Source: an uncultured virus (IMG/VR IMGVR_UViG_3300020037_001229) (lineage: Duplodnaviria; Heunggongvirae; Uroviricota; Caudoviricetes). From it: a DNA stretch of 20,000 bases. The notes under the pieces were generated by a model that did not search any database, was not told the DNA's origin, and worked only from the letters and a program-made list of their open reading frames with translations. The translations under genes were made by a program, and so were the position numbers. The stretch lies in IMG/VR virus record IMGVR_UViG_3300020037_001229. The stretch is one strand, 5' to 3'. Below are positions 6,392-12,794 of this stretch, piece after piece. The first letter of the stretch is position 1. Every line of letters starts with the position of its first letter.

Positions 6392-9300
6392 ATGGCTACA
6401 CAGAAAAAAGCTGTAAGAAAAATTACTAGAGGCCCTGACGGTAAGATTAAAACTATTTACGTTGACGCACAAACAAAACAAGAACTGACTTCTCTTATTG
6501 GTTATACTGTTAATTCACAGAATGAGTTAGCCACTGAGGATTTTCCCCATGGATTAAACTCTATGTTAGACATGCCACATGGTCTGAATGCTATCGAAGG
6601 GTTTCCATTAACACCATTCCTGCCCGGCATTTCTGATAGAGATACTCAAGGCTCTTCGAGTGGTTCACTCTCTGACATGGAGTGGCTAAACCCTAGAAAC
6701 GGGAGAGACCCTGATTCATCTGCCTTAACTTCTGAAGACAGGACACCTGCTAATAATTTTGGTTACGTCAATAAGCCTGGTTTTCTTAGTTTAGCCTCTG
6801 CTCTTCCGGGAATTCCAGGTATTATTGGTAAAGGTATCAATGCCGCTGTCAATGCCAATAACGTAGCTGCCATTAACGCGGCAAGAGAAACTCTCGGACT
6901 CCCTGAGCAATCCACAAAGGAAGCTCTAAGAGGTATCGTCCAAGATAATAAAGGCGTCGTTGCTGAAGCCACGATTGGTAATCAACAAGTAGCCATTGGA
7001 CTCGAAGCTACTACTCCCTCGGGTCGTACTACAATGACCCCACAAGAGGCTCTTGCGAGAGCAGAAGCCAATGACGTAGAAATCCAAGAAGCTACTCCTG
7101 AAGCAAAAGAAGCGGCTGAAGCTAAATTCGCCGAAGAATACGGAAAGCAAGCACAAGGTTTCTTAGGTAATCTAAAAGACATCGTAAAGGATGTTACTGA
7201 AGCAAAAAGTCCACTAGCAAATATCAAAAGTCCCTTTGCCAACGTAAAGAGTCCTTTAACAAAAAGTGAATCTAAATCTAAAGGAAAGTCTAAGGAAGCA
7301 AAAGCAGAAAGCAAATCAACTGGTATAGCTTCTCCCGAGAGTGCCAAGAACGTTTCTATCACACCTGGTTTAGGTCTAGGTAATCTTACGAACAGAACTG
7401 CTAAGACGGACCTAGCTGGCAAAAGCCGTGGTGTTGCCCCTGACGCTACTCTGATGGATGTTATCCAACAAGCGGTAGAACAAACACTAGGGCCTGGTTA
7501 TCAAGCCGTTGTTTCTTCTGGAACTTACTCCCCCGAACAACAAGCAGCTATCAATGAAGCCCGTGCCCAAGCTTACCAAGCAGCTATTGTAGCTGGTAAA
7601 ACACAGGCACAGGCGAATAAGGCTGCTGACGCTGCTGGTAAGGCTGCCGGTCAAGTTGGTACTACAAGGCACACGACTGGCAAAGCCGCTGACTTCTATA
7701 TTGTAGACCCCCAGGGTAACAGAGTTCAAAGCACAGAGGCCCTAAAGTCTATCGCTGCTTCGCTGGCTAGCCTAGGTATTACTGGTATTGGTCTTGGTAA
7801 TCCTGGTGGCTATATGGGTGGTACTTCTATCCATGCTGACGTTGTCGACCCTTCAAAGGCGACTGGTTGGGGTGGTTTAGGCCAACAGTTCAAAGACGCT
7901 ATCAATGACTCTATTGGCCTTCCTAATAAATTTAGTCCGACGGGTATTCCGACACCAACTGCTTCTCCTAGAAACGATCCTGTTCAAGACGTTGCCACCG
8001 AGGGTACTCAAAAGTCGACGACACCTGAGCCTGTTGGATACAACACTGGTTTTGTTGGTCAAGCCTACGGTTCTGGTAATGACGCTCAACAAGCTTTTGC
8101 TCCGATGGGTTTTGCACCCACTCAGAATAGAAGTGATGTTCTTGATCCTTTGATGAGGGACCCTAGAACTGTTGAAGAAATTACGGCTCTAGCGAAGGCT
8201 ATCGCAGGTGAACTCGGTTCTAATACTCTTGCCGGTATTAACTCTGGTGATGAAGCCGCTAAATCTGTAGCACGACAAGAAATTGCTGCCATCCTAGGAA
8301 CTATAGAAAATAGAGCAGCTTCTGCGAGACACGGAGGAAACCTAGCTAGTGTCTTAACTGGCAGTCAATACAATTCACTGATGTCCTCTAACTTAGCAAC
8401 AACAGAAGCTAACTTCCAAGAGTTTGGTGATTTCATTACGGAAGCCATTCAAGATTACTACGATGGAACTAATCCTTCTCCTGCACCAAATGCTACACAC
8501 TATTGGAATCCTTCTATCGTTAGTCCTTCTTGGTCTGACTACTCCAAGGATGGTACGACAGACGTAGGGGAACATACATTTTCTGATATTGCGATTCCGG
8601 GTACAAACGTAAGTGAATACTCTAAGGGTTTGCCAAATGAAGTAAATGTATCTGAAGTTGGTAGACCGTCTTTTACGACAGAAGCTGTTGCTTCTGGTAT
8701 TGCAGGGGCAATGGCCTCTGGTAAAGGAACCACTTCTGGTTCTAGTCTTGGTCTGTCAGGTTCAGCCAGTGGCCTAGCGGGTTTAACTGGTGCTGGAAAA
8801 GGTACAATTTCGGTCAATCCGAATACAGGTATTATTTCCTTTGATGTTGTTTCACCAGAGGAATACGCGGCAGCCGTCGCTGCTTCACAACCAGCTTTTA
8901 CTGGTAATGTTCCGAGTTTCTCTTACGCAAGTCCTTCGGAAGCTTTCGCTAACTACGGTGTTAATACAACCTCTGTTGGGCCAGGTTCTGGTGTACAAAT
9001 GGATGGCCTTGGTGCTTTCGGAAGTGCTCCGGGCTCTGGTTATGGCGGGCAAGCCATGGCAGGTCTACAGGGAATGACTGGTATTTCTAGTTCATTTGAT
9101 AATCCCACGGGTATTGCCGGTACTGGTATTGGTTATGGTTTTGACGCTGGTTCACTAGGTGGTACTGCTTCTGGTTTTGGTTCTGGTTTCGGCGCTGTCG
9201 GAACTTCTGGTTATGGTAGTTTCAGTGGAGGTACCGACGCAGGGACAGACTTCGGTGGTCCAGGTACCTTCGGTGGTTCTTTCGGTGGTGGATACGGTTC

Positions 9301-10024
9301 GCAATCAACCGCTGGGGCTACTTCAGAGTCTATAGGTGCTGGTGGTTATTCTGCTCCTAGTGCTGAGTCTTCCTTTGGTGGATTTAATGCAGGTTCCCTT
9401 GGTGGTTCCGCCTCAGGATTTGGATCAGGTTTTGGTGCCGTAGGCTCCTCTAACACAGGCTCTCCTGGTTATAGTGGTTTCTCACAATCAGGTCTAGGTA
9501 ACTACTCTGGTGGTACGAGTAGCTCTTCTAGTGGCAGCACTTCCAGTTCAGGCTCAGGGAGTGGATCAAGCTCTGCCGGAAAAGGCGGTGGTGGAGGTTA
9601 CAGCGGTTATGGTGGTTTGGATTCTCCGTCCGAACACGGACCAGGCCCCGGAAGCGGCAGTGGAGACGCTGGGGGAGATACAATCCTCTGTACATACTTC
9701 CACGGAAAAGGAAGACTATCAGATGAGCTTTATTTTGCTGATAGTTCTTACGGTGCAATATACATTTCTGAAGATACAATGAATGGTTATCAACTCTGGG
9801 CAGAGCCTATTGTTGAGTACTTAAAGAAAAAGAAGCACCCTATCTTAGAAGAATTCTTATTTTTCTTTGTGAAAGGATGGGCCACAGAAATGGCTTATCG
9901 TATGGGTGTTGAAAAGAAATCTAACTTTATCGGGCGACAGATATGCAATTTTGGTGAAGCGATCTGTAGTTTAATTGGTAAGGCAACTCGTTTTATAAAG
10001 CGACCCCTGAAGGAGAATACATGA
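6392..10024 (+). CDS. large virion/ejection-type protein with predicted peptidase M15-like and Hydrolase_2 (SleB-like) domains, Gly/Ser-rich region and small C-terminal domain
   Basis: 1210 aa; HTTGKAAD...IHAD metal-ligand pattern; AIAGE...IENR...SQY...ATHYWNP...PSW...VGEHTF pattern; low-complexity region ~8690-9675. Confidence 0.75.
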   Translation: MATQKKAVRKITRGPDGKIKTIYVDAQTKQELTSLIGYTVNSQNELATEDFPHGLNSMLDMPHGLNAIEGFPLTPFLPGISDRDTQGSSSGSLSDMEWLNPRNGRDPDSSALTSEDRTPANNFGYVNKPGFLSLASALPGIPGIIGKGINAAVNANNVAAINAARETLGLPEQSTKEALRGIVQDNKGVVAEATIGNQQVAIGLEATTPSGRTTMTPQEALARAEANDVEIQEATPEAKEAAEAKFAEEYGKQAQGFLGNLKDIVKDVTEAKSPLANIKSPFANVKSPLTKSESKSKGKSKEAKAESKSTGIASPESAKNVSITPGLGLGNLTNRTAKTDLAGKSRGVAPDATLMDVIQQAVEQTLGPGYQAVVSSGTYSPEQQAAINEARAQAYQAAIVAGKTQAQANKAADAAGKAAGQVGTTRHTTGKAADFYIVDPQGNRVQSTEALKSIAASLASLGITGIGLGNPGGYMGGTSIHADVVDPSKATGWGGLGQQFKDAINDSIGLPNKFSPTGIPTPTASPRNDPVQDVATEGTQKSTTPEPVGYNTGFVGQAYGSGNDAQQAFAPMGFAPTQNRSDVLDPLMRDPRTVEEITALAKAIAGELGSNTLAGINSGDEAAKSVARQEIAAILGTIENRAASARHGGNLASVLTGSQYNSLMSSNLATTEANFQEFGDFITEAIQDYYDGTNPSPAPNATHYWNPSIVSPSWSDYSKDGTTDVGEHTFSDIAIPGTNVSEYSKGLPNEVNVSEVGRPSFTTEAVASGIAGAMASGKGTTSGSSLGLSGSASGLAGLTGAGKGTISVNPNTGIISFDVVSPEEYAAAVAASQPAFTGNVPSFSYASPSEAFANYGVNTTSVGPGSGVQMDGLGAFGSAPGSGYGGQAMAGLQGMTGISSSFDNPTGIAGTGIGYGFDAGSLGGTASGFGSGFGAVGTSGYGSFSGGTDAGTDFGGPGTFGGSFGGGYGSQSTAGATSESIGAGGYSAPSAESSFGGFNAGSLGGSASGFGSGFGAVGSSNTGSPGYSGFSQSGLGNYSGGTSSSSSGSTSSSGSGSGSSSAGKGGGGGYSGYGGLDSPSEHGPGPGSGSGDAGGDTILCTYFHGKGRLSDELYFADSSYGAIYISEDTMNGYQLWAEPIVEYLKKKKHPILEEFLFFFVKGWATEMAYRMGVEKKSNFIGRQICNFGEAICSLIGKATRFIKRPLKENT
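9137..9445 (+). repeat. two copies of a 22-aa Gly-rich unit (9137-9202, 9380-9445)
   Basis: GFDAGSLGGTASGFGSGFGAVG vs GFNAGSLGGSASGFGSGFGAVG, with many synonymous codon differences. Confidence 0.85.
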
Positions 10025-11014: not shown

Positions 11015-12058
11015 ATGGCATTTCAAAAAGCATCTGGTTACCAAAATTTGCCCAATGGAGTATTTTCTCCGACGCTTTACTCTAAGAAGGTTCAGAAAGC
11101 CTTCCGTAAGGCCTCGGTTGTAGAGGGTATTACTAACTCGGACTTTTTTGGGGAAATCTCTAACTTCGGTGATTCGGTTCGCATTATCAAGGAGCCGGAA
11201 ATCACTGTCCAGAACTACGCACGTGGTACTCAGATTACTCCGCAGGATATGACGGATGAGGACTTCTCGCTCGTTGTAGATAAGGCTAATTACTTCGCCT
11301 TTAAGGTCGATGACATTGAAGAGAAGCACTCGCACGTTAACTGGATGGACCTCGCCACCGACCGTGCAGGCTACAAGATGAAGGACACGTATGACTCGGA
11401 AGTTCTGGGTTATATGTCGGGCTACGTTAAGAATAGCTCGGGCGTCTGGATTGCGAATACTACGACTTCGGGTTCGGTAGCCAATACGTCGGCTGGTACT
11501 GACGAATGGCTTACTGCTCAGAAGCTCGCTCGTGACGACTTTGTCTCGGGTGGTTCCGCCTCGGACTCTATCGCTGTTGGTGTCGCTGGTACTTACGATG
11601 TGACTCCTCTTGCGATCCTTAACCGAATGAATCGTATTATGGACCTCTATAACGTCCCGAAGGATGGTCGTTGGGTTGTCGTTGATCCGGTCTTCGTTGA
11701 GATTCTGATGGACGAAAACTCGAAGTTTATGAACCATGACTATCAGGGTTCGGAAGACTTCACTAACGGCAGAATTTCGGCTGGTAAGATTCGTGGATTT
11801 AATGTCCACATGTCTAATAACCTTCCGTATCTCGGTACGGGTCCTGGTACGGCTGACTCCAACGGTTCGTCCGCGAACTACGGTGTGATCCTTGCGGGTC
11901 ATATGTCCGCCGCCGCCACTGCTACTCAGATCACAAAGACGGAATCGTACCGTGATCCTGACTCGTTCGCTGATATTGTTCGTGGTATGCAGCTTTACGG
12001 CCGTAAAATACTTAGGAGTGAAAGCTTAGTTCGAGCTATCTACAATATTAACTCCTAA
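11015..12058 (+). CDS. major capsid protein (exon 1 = 11015-12004; unspliced frame continues through an intron-borne tail to TAA 12058; 347 aa)
   Basis: strong RBS TAGGAG; motifs FSPTLYSKK, GEISNFGDSVRIIKEP, FAFKVDDIE, GRWVVVDP, SNNLP, RDPDSFADIVRGMQLYG; strongly biased codon usage. Confidence 0.95.
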   Translation: MAFQKASGYQNLPNGVFSPTLYSKKVQKAFRKASVVEGITNSDFFGEISNFGDSVRIIKEPEITVQNYARGTQITPQDMTDEDFSLVVDKANYFAFKVDDIEEKHSHVNWMDLATDRAGYKMKDTYDSEVLGYMSGYVKNSSGVWIANTTTSGSVANTSAGTDEWLTAQKLARDDFVSGGSASDSIAVGVAGTYDVTPLAILNRMNRIMDLYNVPKDGRWVVVDPVFVEILMDENSKFMNHDYQGSEDFTNGRISAGKIRGFNVHMSNNLPYLGTGPGTADSNGSSANYGVILAGHMSAAATATQITKTESYRDPDSFADIVRGMQLYGRKILRSESLVRAIYNINS

Positions 12059-12740
12059 TGCGCTTCATACATTAATTGTATGTCGAAACCCTCTTAATTC
12101 AGAGAAACTCTAAGGAAGACAGCGCGCTTCTATGACAACCCTGAGCGAAGCCTCTTATGAGGAACGTGCAACGACTAACCCTACCAAGGTGTACATCCAA
12201 GTGGATGGAAATAGAGGGAAACTTATACACTAAGTTTTTGATATAGTCTAATCTATATGGAAACATATAGCAGAAAGGTTAAGTTTAGAATGAAATTAAA
12301 ACTACCAGAAAACCATCCGCATAAAGACGGAAGGGAATGCACAACTTGTAATACTTTTAAGAGCGCCTCAGAATTTACTTTATCGAGAGATAAAAGGAGT
12401 TTTGGTGGTATAGCGATGCGATCAAAGTGTAAAACGTGTGACGAACTAAGAAAGTACAAAGGGTTCGTTAAAAGAACATACAATTTAACATTTGAAGGCT
12501 ACGAACAGCTTTTAGAAAAACAGAATTACTGTTGTGCGATCTGTGAAAGTAAAATTTCTAGTAAAAGAACTTCTAGACTCTTTGTTGACCATTGTCATGA
12601 GACATTAGTAGTCAGAGGTTTGCTCTGCTCTTCTTGTAATCATGGTCTCGGTCAGTTTAAAGATAGTCCAAAACTTTTACAGAGAGCAATACAATATTTA
12701 ACCTCGGGTAAGACTTAACGACTCTTACTGAATGAAAATG
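12005..12740 (+). ncRNA. group I self-splicing intron, subgroup IA2-like (736 nt), in the MCP gene
   Basis: 5' exon ends in U12004 pairing with G12060; terminal G12740; P2 CATACA/TGTATG (12066-12082); P3 CCCTCT 12089-94 / AGAGGG 12213-18; P4 TTCAG/CTGAG; P6a CCTC/GAGG; P7 GACTA 12173-77 / TAGTC 12244-48 in GCAACGACTA and GATATAGTC contexts; extra hairpins between P7 and P3'; P8 AACTTA/TAAGTT; P9 CTATATG-GAAA-CATATAG; removal rejoins the MCP frame. Confidence 0.93.
12290..12718 (+). CDS. intron-encoded EndoVII-type HNH (His-Me finger) homing endonuclease
   Basis: CTTC...CKTC zinc finger, then CAIC...VDHCH...VRGLLCSSCNHGLG; located in the P9.1 loop; ATG 12290 follows AAAGG (alternative ATG 12257 lies inside the P9 hairpin). 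Confidence 0.9.
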   Translation: MKLKLPENHPHKDGRECTTCNTFKSASEFTLSRDKRSFGGIAMRSKCKTCDELRKYKGFVKRTYNLTFEGYEQLLEKQNYCCAICESKISSKRTSRLFVDHCHETLVVRGLLCSSCNHGLGQFKDSPKLLQRAIQYLTSGKT

Positions 12741-12794
12741 AAAATCTTGCGTCCCGAGACGCTCGTTCGCGCCATTTACAATATCAACGTCTAA
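12741..12794 (+). CDS. major capsid protein exon 2 (KILRPETLVRAIYNINV*)
   Basis: follows intron terminal G; joins exon 1 in frame as YGR|KILRPE, giving 347 aa; followed by the RBS of the next gene. Confidence 0.9.
   Translation, partial: KILRPETLVRAIYNINV

What the first reader, a model, noticed from the sequence alone, without database searches (positions are those of the whole stretch)
12002..12065. Duplicated capsid tail doubles as the intron's P1 stem extension
Seen: TTAGGAGT (12012-19; Leu/Arg/Ser codons) is perfectly complementary to ACTCCTAA (12051-58; Asn/Ser/stop codons), with a small inner AGCTT/GAGCT hairpin. This stem brings GCG (12060-62) next to exon CGU (12002-04) to form the U-G splice-site pair. 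Two of the three amino-acid differences from exon 2 (P>S, V>S) fall inside this stem. Inference: the same 54 nt are constrained as both protein and RNA structure, and ribosomes terminating at 12056-58 must melt P1, so translation and splicing would compete and could set the isoform ratio.
Basis: partly seen in the sequence, partly recalled or inferred. Interest (0 to 1): 0.8.

Follow-up and report, generated by a model that had tools for sequence, protein, structure and literature searches.

The report
Capsid intron carrying spare exon tail
A self-splicing intron near the end of a phage capsid gene carries its own re-coded copy of the gene's last 17 codons, folded into the hairpin that defines the splice site, so spliced and unspliced messages should both encode a complete capsid protein.

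Summary
TTAGGAGT (12012-19) and ACTCCTAA (12051-58) form a perfect 8-bp stem inside a group I intron (12005-12740; Rfam RF00028, 79.8 bits). The intron splits a podophage capsid gene 17 codons before its stop and carries an Endo VII/HNH homing endonuclease.

The intron's first 54 nt are an in-frame, heavily re-coded copy ("tail 1") of exon 2 (12741-12794). I found the same arrangement in 8 further distinct metagenomic phage lineages. In 9 of 9, the unconstrained fold pairs exon CGU with GCG and closes the tail insert with a helix. The Leu third base (U/C/G/A) covaries with its partner, including UAA to UGA stop changes.

Two homologues lack tail 1 and have a minimal P1 (CGU|AAAAUUUUGCG), so tail 1 is an insertion into the P1 loop. 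Tail 1 evolves like coding sequence (pN/pS 0.23). Its codons (AGR-AGY against CGN-CCN) suit pairing.

Ser for Pro is also a natural polymorphism (10 of 78 single-tail relatives), so it need not be a cost of the stem. Competition between translation and splicing is plausible but untested. Contigs from RNA libraries showed no ligated exons.

Relatives of the endonuclease sit free-standing just after the capsid stop. I rate this a new variant of a known kind.

The parts
11015..12004 (+). Capsid exon 1 (major capsid protein, residues 1-330), ending in Arg codon CGT
   Evidence: ORF 11015-12058. 68.8% nt identity to the annotated major capsid protein gene of Rhizobium phage RHph_N3_19. 365 capsid relatives in viral contigs.
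12005..12740 (+). Group I intron, 736 nt. 5' splice site after U12004, terminal G at 12740.
   Evidence: Rfam RF00028 at 12044-12270, 79.8 bits, E 3.8e-19. The core has 56 consensus pairs, 33 of them with compensatory changes across 11 homologues. Terminal G conserved in 11 of 11. Joining 12004 to 12741 restores the conserved ...YGRKILRPE... reading.
12005..12058 (+). Tail 1: in-frame re-coded copy of exon 2 (KILRSESLVRAIYNINS*) lying in the P1 loop
   Evidence: 35 of 54 nt identical to 12741-12794, with 3 residue differences. Present in 9 distinct homologues and absent in L146 and L148. pN/pS 0.23 among tail 1 copies.
11999..12005 (+). P1 5' strand: exon GGCCGU plus intron A+1
   Evidence: Pairs with 12059-12065 in the fold. 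Exon CGU is invariant in 11 of 11 intron-bearing loci, while the Gly third base at -4 is C, U, G or A.
12012..12019 (+). P1-extension 5' strand UUAGGAGU (Leu, Arg, Ser codons)
   Evidence: Paired in the MFE. An equivalent strand starts at +6 to +9 in all 9 homologues.
12023..12037 (+). Inner hairpin AGCUU / GAGCU within tail 1
   Evidence: MFE folds. Other homologues have inner helices, but at other positions.
12051..12058 (+). P1-extension 3' strand ACUCCUAA (Asn, Ser, stop codons)
   Evidence: In L141, L142, L145 and L149 the equivalent strand lies after the stop codon in non-coding sequence.
12059..12065 (+). Internal guide sequence UGCGCUU. G12060 pairs with U12004.
   Evidence: TGCGCTT is found in 10 of 11 intron-bearing homologues; L148 has TGCGATT. 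It pairs with exon GGNCGU.
12066..12082 (+). P2 hairpin CAUACA/UGUAUG
   Evidence: Its pairs covary across the 11 homologues (columns 10-27).
12290..12718 (+). Endo VII / HNH (His-Me finger) homing endonuclease ORF. The ORF is open from ATG 12257; homologues align from ATG 12290.
   Evidence: Pfam PF02945, E 3.1e-25. Invariant DHCH...N and paired Cys residues in 7 homologues. 53-74% identical homologues beside capsid genes.
12708..12728 (+). 3'-terminal intron hairpin GUAAGA/UCUUAC. The endonuclease stop codon (12716-18) sits in its loop.
   Evidence: Read. The stem differs while staying complementary in the 11 homologues. I judged this by eye and did not count it formally.
12741..12794 (+). 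Exon 2: the canonical capsid tail KILRPETLVRAIYNINV*
   Evidence: Pro at this position in 68 of 78 single-tail relatives. It begins exactly at the Lys codon in 11 of 11 homologues.

Best explanation
A mobile group I intron (12005-12740) with an Endo VII/HNH homing endonuclease splits the capsid gene 17 codons before its stop. The apical loop of its P1 hairpin holds an in-frame, synonymously re-coded copy of those 17 codons plus a stop (tail 1).

This insert puts about 55 nt between the splice-site U and the guide sequence. A helix between the Leu-Arg-Ser codons (12012-19) and the segment just 5' of the guide sequence (12051-58, here the Asn-Ser-stop codons) closes it, so exon CGU can still meet GCG.

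Shown here: the helix and the U.G pairing are conserved with covariation, tail 1 evolves as coding sequence, the ribozyme core is under structural selection, and tail 1 is dispensable for the ribozyme.

Inferred: unspliced mRNA is translated into a full-length capsid protein with a Ser-type tail, and spliced mRNA into the Pro-type tail. This makes the intron nearly cost-free even when ribosomes running over P1 prevent splicing. The AGR-AGY spelling may also protect the exon 1-tail 1 junction from the intron's own endonuclease and from recombination with exon 2.
For: - Rfam hit of 79.8 bits. Across 11 homologues the core has 56 consensus pairs, 33 with compensatory changes. The terminal G is present in 11 of 11.
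- The same layout (exon 1, tail 1, stop, guide sequence, core, HNH, G, exon 2) occurs in 9 distinct lineages whose capsids are only about 50-58% identical where measured.
- The unconstrained MFE of exon -6 to guide sequence +6 gives U-1.G and G-2:C pairing plus a closing helix in 9 of 9.
- The pair at the Leu third base is U-A (window, L140, L141, L145), C-G (L138, L147, L150, with stop UAA changed to UGA), G.U (L142) and A-U (L149). L140 has G-C changed to A-U, through an Arg-to-Lys codon with UCC changed to UCU.
- Putting a locus's own exon-2 DNA in place of tail 1 keeps P1 in 1 of 9. Synonymous re-codings form P1 in 0 to 255 of 500 per locus.
- Duplex energy of own tail 1 with own pre-guide segment averages -9.67 kcal/mol, against -7.05 for cross-locus pairs and -3.08 for own exon-2 codons.
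- Tail 1 against tail 1: pS 0.865, pN 0.199. pN against a locus's own exon 2 is 0.148, against 0.283 for other loci's exon 2. No frameshift or early stop in 9 of 9.
- L146 and L148 have the same intron with a minimal P1 and no tail 1.
- Reviews state that ribosomes crossing the 5' junction can prevent folding, and that most group I introns carry an in-frame stop just after the junction (PMC3073962 and PMC3984707, passages).
Against: - No splicing was observed. In contigs of two metatranscriptome runs, one RNA-labelled run and one DNA run, no canonical ligated junction appeared. Contigs spanned the 3' splice site unspliced. Contigs cannot show absence.
- Fold energies against synonymous re-codings are only modest (z from -1.76 to +1.68). 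L141's helix is weak (-4.0 kcal/mol, with an A.C mismatch).
- Beyond the first 4 pairs the helix register differs between lineages. MAFFT aligned the region by codons, so I could not run the formal pair-count tool. The covariation comes from my own table of 9 related sequences.
- Ser at the Pro position is a natural variant (10 of 78).
- Coding-type conservation of tail 1 could come from occasional exchange with functional single tails. The hybrid intron-less allele in run X15 shows such exchange can happen.
- A 6-nt bulge right after the splice site is unusual, and its effect on catalysis is unknown.
Confidence: 0.7

Rival explanations
1. Tail 1 is mainly the cleavage-resistant, recombination-proof 'inserted C-terminus' that the homing endonuclease carries with it, as in fungal mitochondrial mobile-ORF gene hybrids. 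On this view the stem is a secondary accommodation, and the codon changes (CGU CCN to AGR AGY) exist to destroy the endonuclease target that exon 1 plus tail 1 would otherwise recreate.
For: - Exon 1 followed by tail 1 recreates an uninterrupted capsid gene, so some divergence is needed for self-immunity. This is my inference.
- All 9 tail 1 copies change both codons, while 77 of 78 single tails use CGN.
- Homologous endonucleases sit free-standing directly after the capsid stop in 16 metagenome loci and in L090-L093.
- The longest exact run shared by the two tails is 5-11 nt in 8 of 9 loci.
- Fungal hybrids with an inserted C-terminus, a mobile ORF and a displaced native C-terminus are documented (PMC3630166, passages).
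Against: - It does not explain why the partner strand covaries, including non-coding partners in L141, L142, L145 and L149.
- It does not explain why exon-2 codons in place of tail 1 abolish P1 in 8 of 9 folds.
- Free-standing loci keep ordinary CGN CCN tails in most cases, so that dinucleotide-codon pair is not obviously the target.
- This reading is compatible with the main explanation rather than exclusive of it.
Confidence: 0.2
2. The ribozyme no longer splices in vivo. The capsid protein is made only from the unspliced message with tail 1, and exon 2 is a displaced relic.
For: - No ligated-exon contig appeared in any run laid.
- Ser-type tails work as the only tail in other phages (10 of 78).
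- P10 pairing with exon 2 is nearly absent in the window. This is my reading.
Against: - 33 of 56 core pairs show compensatory changes.
- The terminal G and exon CGU are invariant in 11 of 11.
- Exon 2 is intact, in frame with Pro conserved, and shows pN/pS 0.335 in 9 of 9.
- L146 and L148 have no tail 1, so they need splicing to make a complete capsid protein.
Confidence: 0.07
3. The 8-bp stem is a chance inverted repeat in AT-rich sequence with no function.
For: A stem of at least 8 bp arises in 42 of 2000 shuffles. The local fold z-score is only -1.89.
Against: An equivalent helix is present in 9 of 9 diverged homologues, with four pair types at one position. Only 9 of 2000 synonymous re-codings give such a stem.
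Confidence: 0.03

Closest known systems
Phage group I introns with homing endonucleases in protein-coding genes (T4 td, nrdB and nrdD; SPO1 DNA polymerase; capsid-gene introns of lactococcal phage Tuc2009 and Cluster J mycobacteriophages)
   Same: A self-splicing group I core with a U.G pair in P1, a terminal G and an embedded endonuclease ORF, inserted in a conserved late or essential gene. Ribosomes reach the intron through the upstream exon (PMC3073962, PMC3984707 and PMC3706429, passages).
   Different: Those introns are described as having an in-frame stop immediately after the 5' junction. Here the stop comes 17 codons later, after a faithful copy of the rest of the gene, and that copy sits inside P1. 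The word stem 'duplicat' does not occur in PMC3984707. In PMC3706429 it occurs twice, both times about a transposon's target-site duplication, not an exon copy.
Mobile-ORF 'gene hybrids' with a C-terminal duplication in fungal mitochondria (Allomyces macrogynus atp6; Glomus atp6, atp9, cox2, nad3)
   Same: A mobile endonuclease travels with an in-phase, diverged copy of the target gene's 3' end, and the native C-terminus is displaced downstream. The differences between copies are largely synonymous (PMC3630166, passages).
   Different: In most cases described there, no ribozyme removes the insert (the Glomus cox2 hybrid lists a group I intron beside it), and the native C-terminus is often not expressed. 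Here the insert lies inside a structurally conserved self-splicing intron that can restore the native tail, and the inserted copy doubles as P1 structure.
Collaborative homing and endonuclease-gene invasion (a free-standing endonuclease and an ORF-less intron converging on one site; cyanophage psbA with F-CphI, an Endo VII-motif enzyme)
   Same: The same endonuclease family occurs free-standing next to the target gene and also inside an intron in that gene. The intron-borne copies form one clade (98/96 support) among free-standing ones in a midpoint-rooted tree. The concept comes from PMC3984707 (passage). For F-CphI, PMC6083498, I saw only the search listing and abstract start.
   Different: I did not test homology to F-CphI itself. 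Here the intron-borne state comes with an exon-tail duplication that the published models do not include.
'Core creep': the I-TevI ORF overlapping P6a/P7 of the td intron
   Same: One stretch of RNA is constrained both as codons and as ribozyme helix (PMC3073962, passage).
   Different: In td the overlapping codons belong to the endonuclease and touch the catalytic core. Here they are a copy of the host gene's own tail and form a peripheral P1 extension.

Membership tests
Group I intron (Rfam RF00028) | Conserved core helices P3-P9 scoring above the family threshold | tested here: met
   79.8 bits against a gathering score of 50, model positions 1-253. Across 11 homologues there are 56 consensus pairs, 33 with compensatory changes.
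Group I intron (Rfam RF00028) | P1 helix pairing the 5' exon end with an internal guide sequence, with a U.G pair at the splice site | tested here: met
   U12004.G12060, G12003-C12061 and C12002-G12062. CGU and GCG are invariant in 11 of 11 homologues. Rfam's own local P1 alignment at 12044-12069 has mismatches, so the long-range P1 is the better model.
Group I intron (Rfam RF00028) | Terminal guanosine at the 3' splice site, and exon ligation that restores the reading frame | tested here: met
   G12740. G is the last intron base in 11 of 11 homologues. Joining 12004 to 12741 gives ...YGRKILRPETLVRAIYNINV*, matching intron-less relatives.
Group I intron (Rfam RF00028) | Actual self-splicing (GTP-dependent transesterification) | not testable with these tools
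   Contigs from RNA libraries showed no ligated junction. Contigs cannot show absence.
Endo VII / HNH (His-Me finger) homing endonuclease | Endonuclease_7 domain with the catalytic His-Me finger and zinc-binding cysteines | tested here: met
   PF02945, E 3.1e-25, profile positions 4-81 of 82. Invariant D100, H101, C102, H103, N117 and Cys pairs in 7 homologues.
Endo VII / HNH (His-Me finger) homing endonuclease | Site-specific cleavage of the intron-less allele, and homing | not testable with these tools
   Only indirect support: presence or absence of the element varies among related capsid genes.
Mobile-ORF C-terminal-duplication gene hybrid (fungal mitochondrial type) | Inserted in-phase C-terminus, then an endonuclease ORF, then the displaced native C-terminus | tested here: met
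   Tail 1 (12005-12058), HNH (12290-12718) and exon 2 (12741-12794) lie in that order.
Mobile-ORF C-terminal-duplication gene hybrid (fungal mitochondrial type) | The inserted C-terminus is foreign (horizontally acquired) and the native one resembles close relatives | tested here: inconclusive
   Synonymous sites between the two tails are saturated (pS 0.908). Yet tail 1's protein is closer to its own exon 2 (pN 0.148) than to other loci's exon 2 (pN 0.283), which argues against a simple foreign origin.

The most novel reading that the evidence does not exclude
This is a 'splicing-optional' self-splicing intron. By housing a re-coded copy of the remaining exon inside its own P1 hairpin, it makes both the unspliced and the spliced capsid message productive. 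Because ribosomes reading that copy must unwind P1, translation rate would set the ratio of Ser-tail to Pro-tail capsid subunits. Nature supplies a three-state series in one phage group: a free-standing endonuclease after the capsid stop, an intron plus endonuclease, and an intron plus endonuclease plus spare tail. That series would capture how a mobile intron is assembled and then tamed.
Probability: 0.4. Interest if true: 0.85.

Novelty: new variant of a known kind. Interest (0 to 1): 0.7.

Why it matters
Coupled transcription and translation is the standard explanation for why group I introns are rare or costly in bacterial protein genes. It is also the standard explanation for the early in-frame stop codon they usually carry.

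This family shows a different solution: the ribosome is allowed to finish a correct protein inside the intron. That makes several open questions directly testable.
- How much do ribosomes interfere with P1 formation in vivo?
- Can an intron become phenotypically silent without splicing?
- How does a free-standing homing endonuclease become intron-borne?

There is also a practical point. Gene callers will annotate 11015-12058 as a complete capsid gene and miss both the intron and the true exon 2.

Tried and rejected
- No whole genome is held for this window. No earlier findings of this scan touch it.
- Cultured-phage records hold no copy of this intron-and-tail arrangement. blastn found only capsid exons of Rhizobium, Sinorhizobium and Roseobacter phages, plus generic intron-core matches to Staphylococcus and other phages. 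The best endonuclease match by tblastn was about 44% identical.
- MAFFT aligned the P1 region by codon homology and misplaced the 3' strand (A2). I therefore did not use the count of structure pairs and built a pair table from individual folds instead.
- RNA evidence. Of four runs laid, none gave the canonical ligated junction. One 247-nt contig in metatranscriptome run X15 skips exactly 736 nt (12028 to 12765, with 5 shared nt), but it joins tail 1 codons to the back half of exon 2. That is a recombination-type intron-less allele, not a splice product. The lack of intron coverage in X15 and X16 is not evidence of anything.
- L083 differs from the window at only 2 positions, both in exon 1, so it gives no information on the stem.
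- An alternative splice site after U12019 pairing with G12062 was rejected, because the matching 3' boundary would end in C rather than G. This is my reading.
- An alternative 3' site after G12734 is in frame but would add Lys-Met, which relatives lack.
- I considered 'selection for maximal synonymous divergence' between the two tails. I dropped it because 5 of 14 same-residue codons are identical in the window, about what random codon choice gives. This was a hand count.
- Literature searches for a described exon-tail copy inside a group I intron found nothing relevant. The HMO-2011 paper PMC10580990 mentions only possible DNA polymerase introns.
Full report
WHAT IS THERE. The window is a podophage contig, identical to two viral-contig loci; no whole genome is held. 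ORF 11015-12058 is the major capsid protein. Its DNA is 68.8% identical to the annotated capsid gene of Rhizobium phage RHph_N3_19, and 365 relatives were found in viral contigs. Rfam finds a single family in the 20 kb: a group I intron at 12044-12270 (79.8 bits, E 3.8e-19). Just downstream lies an ORF (12257 or 12290 to 12718) with an Endonuclease VII / HNH domain (PF02945, E 3.1e-25). G+C falls from about 0.5 in the flanking genes to 0.28-0.42 across 12000-12750.

The capsid reading frame ends ...YGRKILRSESLVRAIYNINS*. A second copy, KILRPETLVRAIYNINV*, lies at 12741-12794, immediately after a G. The two copies share 35 of 54 nt and differ at 3 residues. Intron-less relatives read ...YGRKILRPE... 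or ...KILKPQ.... The intron is therefore 12005-12740, exon 2 is the canonical tail, and the first 54 nt of the intron are an extra in-frame copy, which I call tail 1.

THE OBSERVATION. The 8-bp stem forms in the minimum-energy fold. Alone it is only mildly unusual: a stem of at least 8 bp occurs in 42 of 2000 shuffles and in 9 of 2000 synonymous re-codings, and the local fold has z = -1.89.

HOMOLOGUES. Searching with the endonuclease found the same arrangement in viral contigs and metagenome contigs (270 relatives, 80 kept).
- Nine distinct sequences have the full layout of exon 1, tail 1, stop, UGCGCUU, ribozyme core, HNH, G and exon 2: the window, L138, L140, L141 (same as L086), L142, L145, L147 (same as L087), L149 (same as L088) and L150. 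L139 is identical to L138 in this region. L143 and L144 show the same tails as L142 and were not analysed separately.
- Their capsids are about 50-58% identical to the window's where measured. Their endonucleases are 57-74% identical.
- Two further loci, L146 and L148, have the intron at the same Arg|Lys site with the endonuclease and exon 2 but no tail 1. Their P1 is minimal: CGU|AAAAUUUUGCGCUUU and CGU|AAACAUUUUGCGAUU.
- Sixteen metagenome loci, plus L090-L093, carry a homologous endonuclease free-standing 7-67 nt after an ordinary single capsid tail. They have no ribozyme motif, and L090-L093 gave no Rfam hit.
- The remaining loci did not match my tail pattern and were not examined.

THE RIBOZYME IS UNDER SELECTION. 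RNAalifold on the 11 intron-bearing sequences, from the guide sequence to the endonuclease start, gives 56 consensus pairs. Of these, 33 keep pairing through changes on both sides. The last intron base is G in 11 of 11, and exon 2 starts exactly at the Lys codon in 11 of 11. Exon CGU is invariant, whereas the preceding Gly third base is C, U, G or A.

THE STEM IS A CONSERVED CLOSURE OF P1. I folded exon -6 to guide sequence +6 for each of the 9 tail-bearing sequences without constraints. Every one gives U-1.G, G-2:C and A+1:U. After a bulge of about 6 nt comes a helix between the Leu-Arg/Lys-Ser codons and the segment just 5' of the guide sequence.

The base of that helix is fixed in position, at +8 to +11 in 6 of 9. 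The pair made by the Leu third base takes four forms:
- U-A in the window, L140, L141 and L145.
- C-G in L138, L147 and L150, where the partner is the middle base of the stop codon, changed from UAA to UGA.
- G.U in L142.
- A-U in L149.

L140 also replaces a G-C pair with A-U, through AGG (Arg) to AAG (Lys) on one strand and UCC to UCU on the other. In L141, L142, L145 and L149 the 3' strand lies after the stop codon in non-coding sequence, so the pairing does not depend on the coding overlap seen in the window. Further in, the registers differ, and L141 and L145 have an A.C mismatch.

Controls:
- Replacing tail 1 with the locus's own exon-2 DNA keeps P1 in only 1 of 9 folds. Synonymous re-codings form P1 in 0 to 255 of 500 per locus, against 8 of 9 natives on a strict criterion and 9 of 9 for the U.G and G-C pairs. 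Energy z-scores are modest, from -1.76 to +1.68.
- Duplex energy of a locus's own tail 1 (+5 to +20) with its own pre-guide segment averages -9.67 kcal/mol. Cross-locus pairs average -7.05, and the equivalent exon-2 codons -3.08.
- The sequences are related and few. MAFFT's codon-based alignment prevented use of the formal pair-count tool.

TAIL 1 EVOLVES AS CODING SEQUENCE.
- Among the 9 tail 1 copies (first 14 codons), pS is 0.865 and pN is 0.199, a ratio of 0.23. For exon 2 the values are 0.655 and 0.219.
- All 14 third positions vary, against 9 first and 8 second positions.
- None of the 9 has a frameshift or an early stop.
- Tail 1 against its own exon 2 has saturated synonymous sites (pS 0.908) but fewer replacements (pN 0.148) than against other loci's exon 2 (pN 0.283). 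Both tails therefore track the same lineage-specific peptide.

The spelling is distinctive. The Arg/Lys codon is AGG, AGA or AAG in 9 of 9 tail 1 copies, whereas 77 of 78 single-tail relatives use CGN. The next codon is AGY (Ser) in 8 and GCA (Ala) in 1, whereas exon 2 always has CCN. Ser itself is not exotic: 10 of 78 single-tail capsids have it, mostly as TCN, including the window's nearest intron-less relatives L012-L015.

HISTORY. In an endonuclease tree of 29 rows with a midpoint root, the 11 intron-borne copies form one group (98/96 support) among free-standing ones. L146, which lacks tail 1, is sister to L140, which has it (100/99), inside the tail-bearing set. L148 sits on a long, unresolved branch. 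The simplest reading is that tail 1 was present early in the intron-borne clade and was lost at least once. How it arose is open; possibilities include an aberrant homing repair or an illegitimate join between a capsid stop region and the P1 loop.

A metatranscriptome contig joins tail 1 codons at 12028 to exon 2 at 12765, across 5 shared nt, deleting exactly 736 nt. This shows that recombination between the two tails produces intron-less hybrid alleles in nature.

MECHANISM AND ITS LIMITS. The following are shown: the P1 architecture, the covariation, coding-type conservation of tail 1, selection on the core, and the fact that tail 1 is dispensable.

The following are inferred:
- Unspliced message yields a complete Ser-tail capsid protein and spliced message the Pro-tail form.
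- A ribosome reading tail 1 and terminating at 12056-58, 1 nt from the guide sequence, prevents P1 from forming.
- The spare tail removes the cost of that interference.

The reviews I read in passages say that ribosomes crossing the junction can block folding, that translation of the upstream exon nevertheless helps T4 introns, and that most introns stop the ribosome right after the junction (PMC3073962, PMC3984707). An 'isoform ratio set by translation' remains a hypothesis. No ligated exons were seen in contigs from RNA libraries, which cannot show absence.

COMPARISON AND NOVELTY. The parts are known: a phage group I intron with an HNH endonuclease; capsid-gene introns (PMC3706429, passages); C-terminal duplications carried by mobile endonuclease ORFs in fungal mitochondria (PMC3630166, passages); and free-standing and intron-borne endonucleases converging on one site (PMC3984707). 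I did not find the combination described in full-text searches. That combination is an exon-tail copy inside the P1 hairpin of a conserved self-splicing intron, constrained both as protein and as helix, in at least 9 lineages. I file it as a new variant of a known kind.

Noticed in passing
window 12028 / 12765 (run X15): One 247-nt contig (depth 2.8) in a metatranscriptome deletes exactly 736 nt between the two tail copies at a shared GTTCG. This gives an intron-less allele with a hybrid tail: the Ser-type front (with 3 synonymous differences from the window) and the exon-2 back. It looks like intron loss by recombination between the repeats.
   Followed up: partly
L028 731-942; L063 2225-2455; L071 2655-2873; L074 426-644; L077 2655-2873: Other capsid genes of this phage group carry short group I introns (80-83 bits) at different, more 5' positions of the gene; the roughly 240-280 nt of extra length in their capsid matches leaves no room for an endonuclease gene. 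The capsid gene seems to be a recurrent intron target.
   Followed up: no
L087 173-936: L087 has a second group I intron hit (51.4 bits, 764 nt span) splitting its capsid gene near residue 96, in addition to the tail-site intron.
   Followed up: no
window 12708-12728 and homologues: The endonuclease stop codon lies in the loop (consensus UAACGA) of a hairpin just before the 3' splice site. The stem sequence differs between homologues while staying complementary. This looks like another coding/structure overlap.
   Followed up: partly
L156 173-223; L167 557-607: Two loci with a free-standing endonuclease have a single capsid tail of the Arg-Ser type (CGT AGC, AGA AGT), the latter spelled like tail 1. 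They may be remnants of intron loss, or the source of tail 1.
   Followed up: no
L176 1345-1773; L181 1501-1929: These endonuclease homologues contain several in-frame stop codons (5 in each translated match) and look like decaying copies.
   Followed up: no
window 12730-12740: The intron ends ...GAAUG AAAAUG. A second G at 12734 would give an in-frame alternative 3' splice site adding Lys-Met. Relatives lack those residues.
   Followed up: no
window 11994-12007: UUUAC GGCC GUAAA can form a 5-bp hairpin that sequesters the splice-site U, and it does so in the fold of 11990-12090. The homologues' sequences do not preserve it.
   Followed up: partly
window 6392-10024: A 1210-residue protein with a cell-wall hydrolase domain (PF07486, E 3.2e-6), probably an internal virion or ejection protein.
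   Followed up: no
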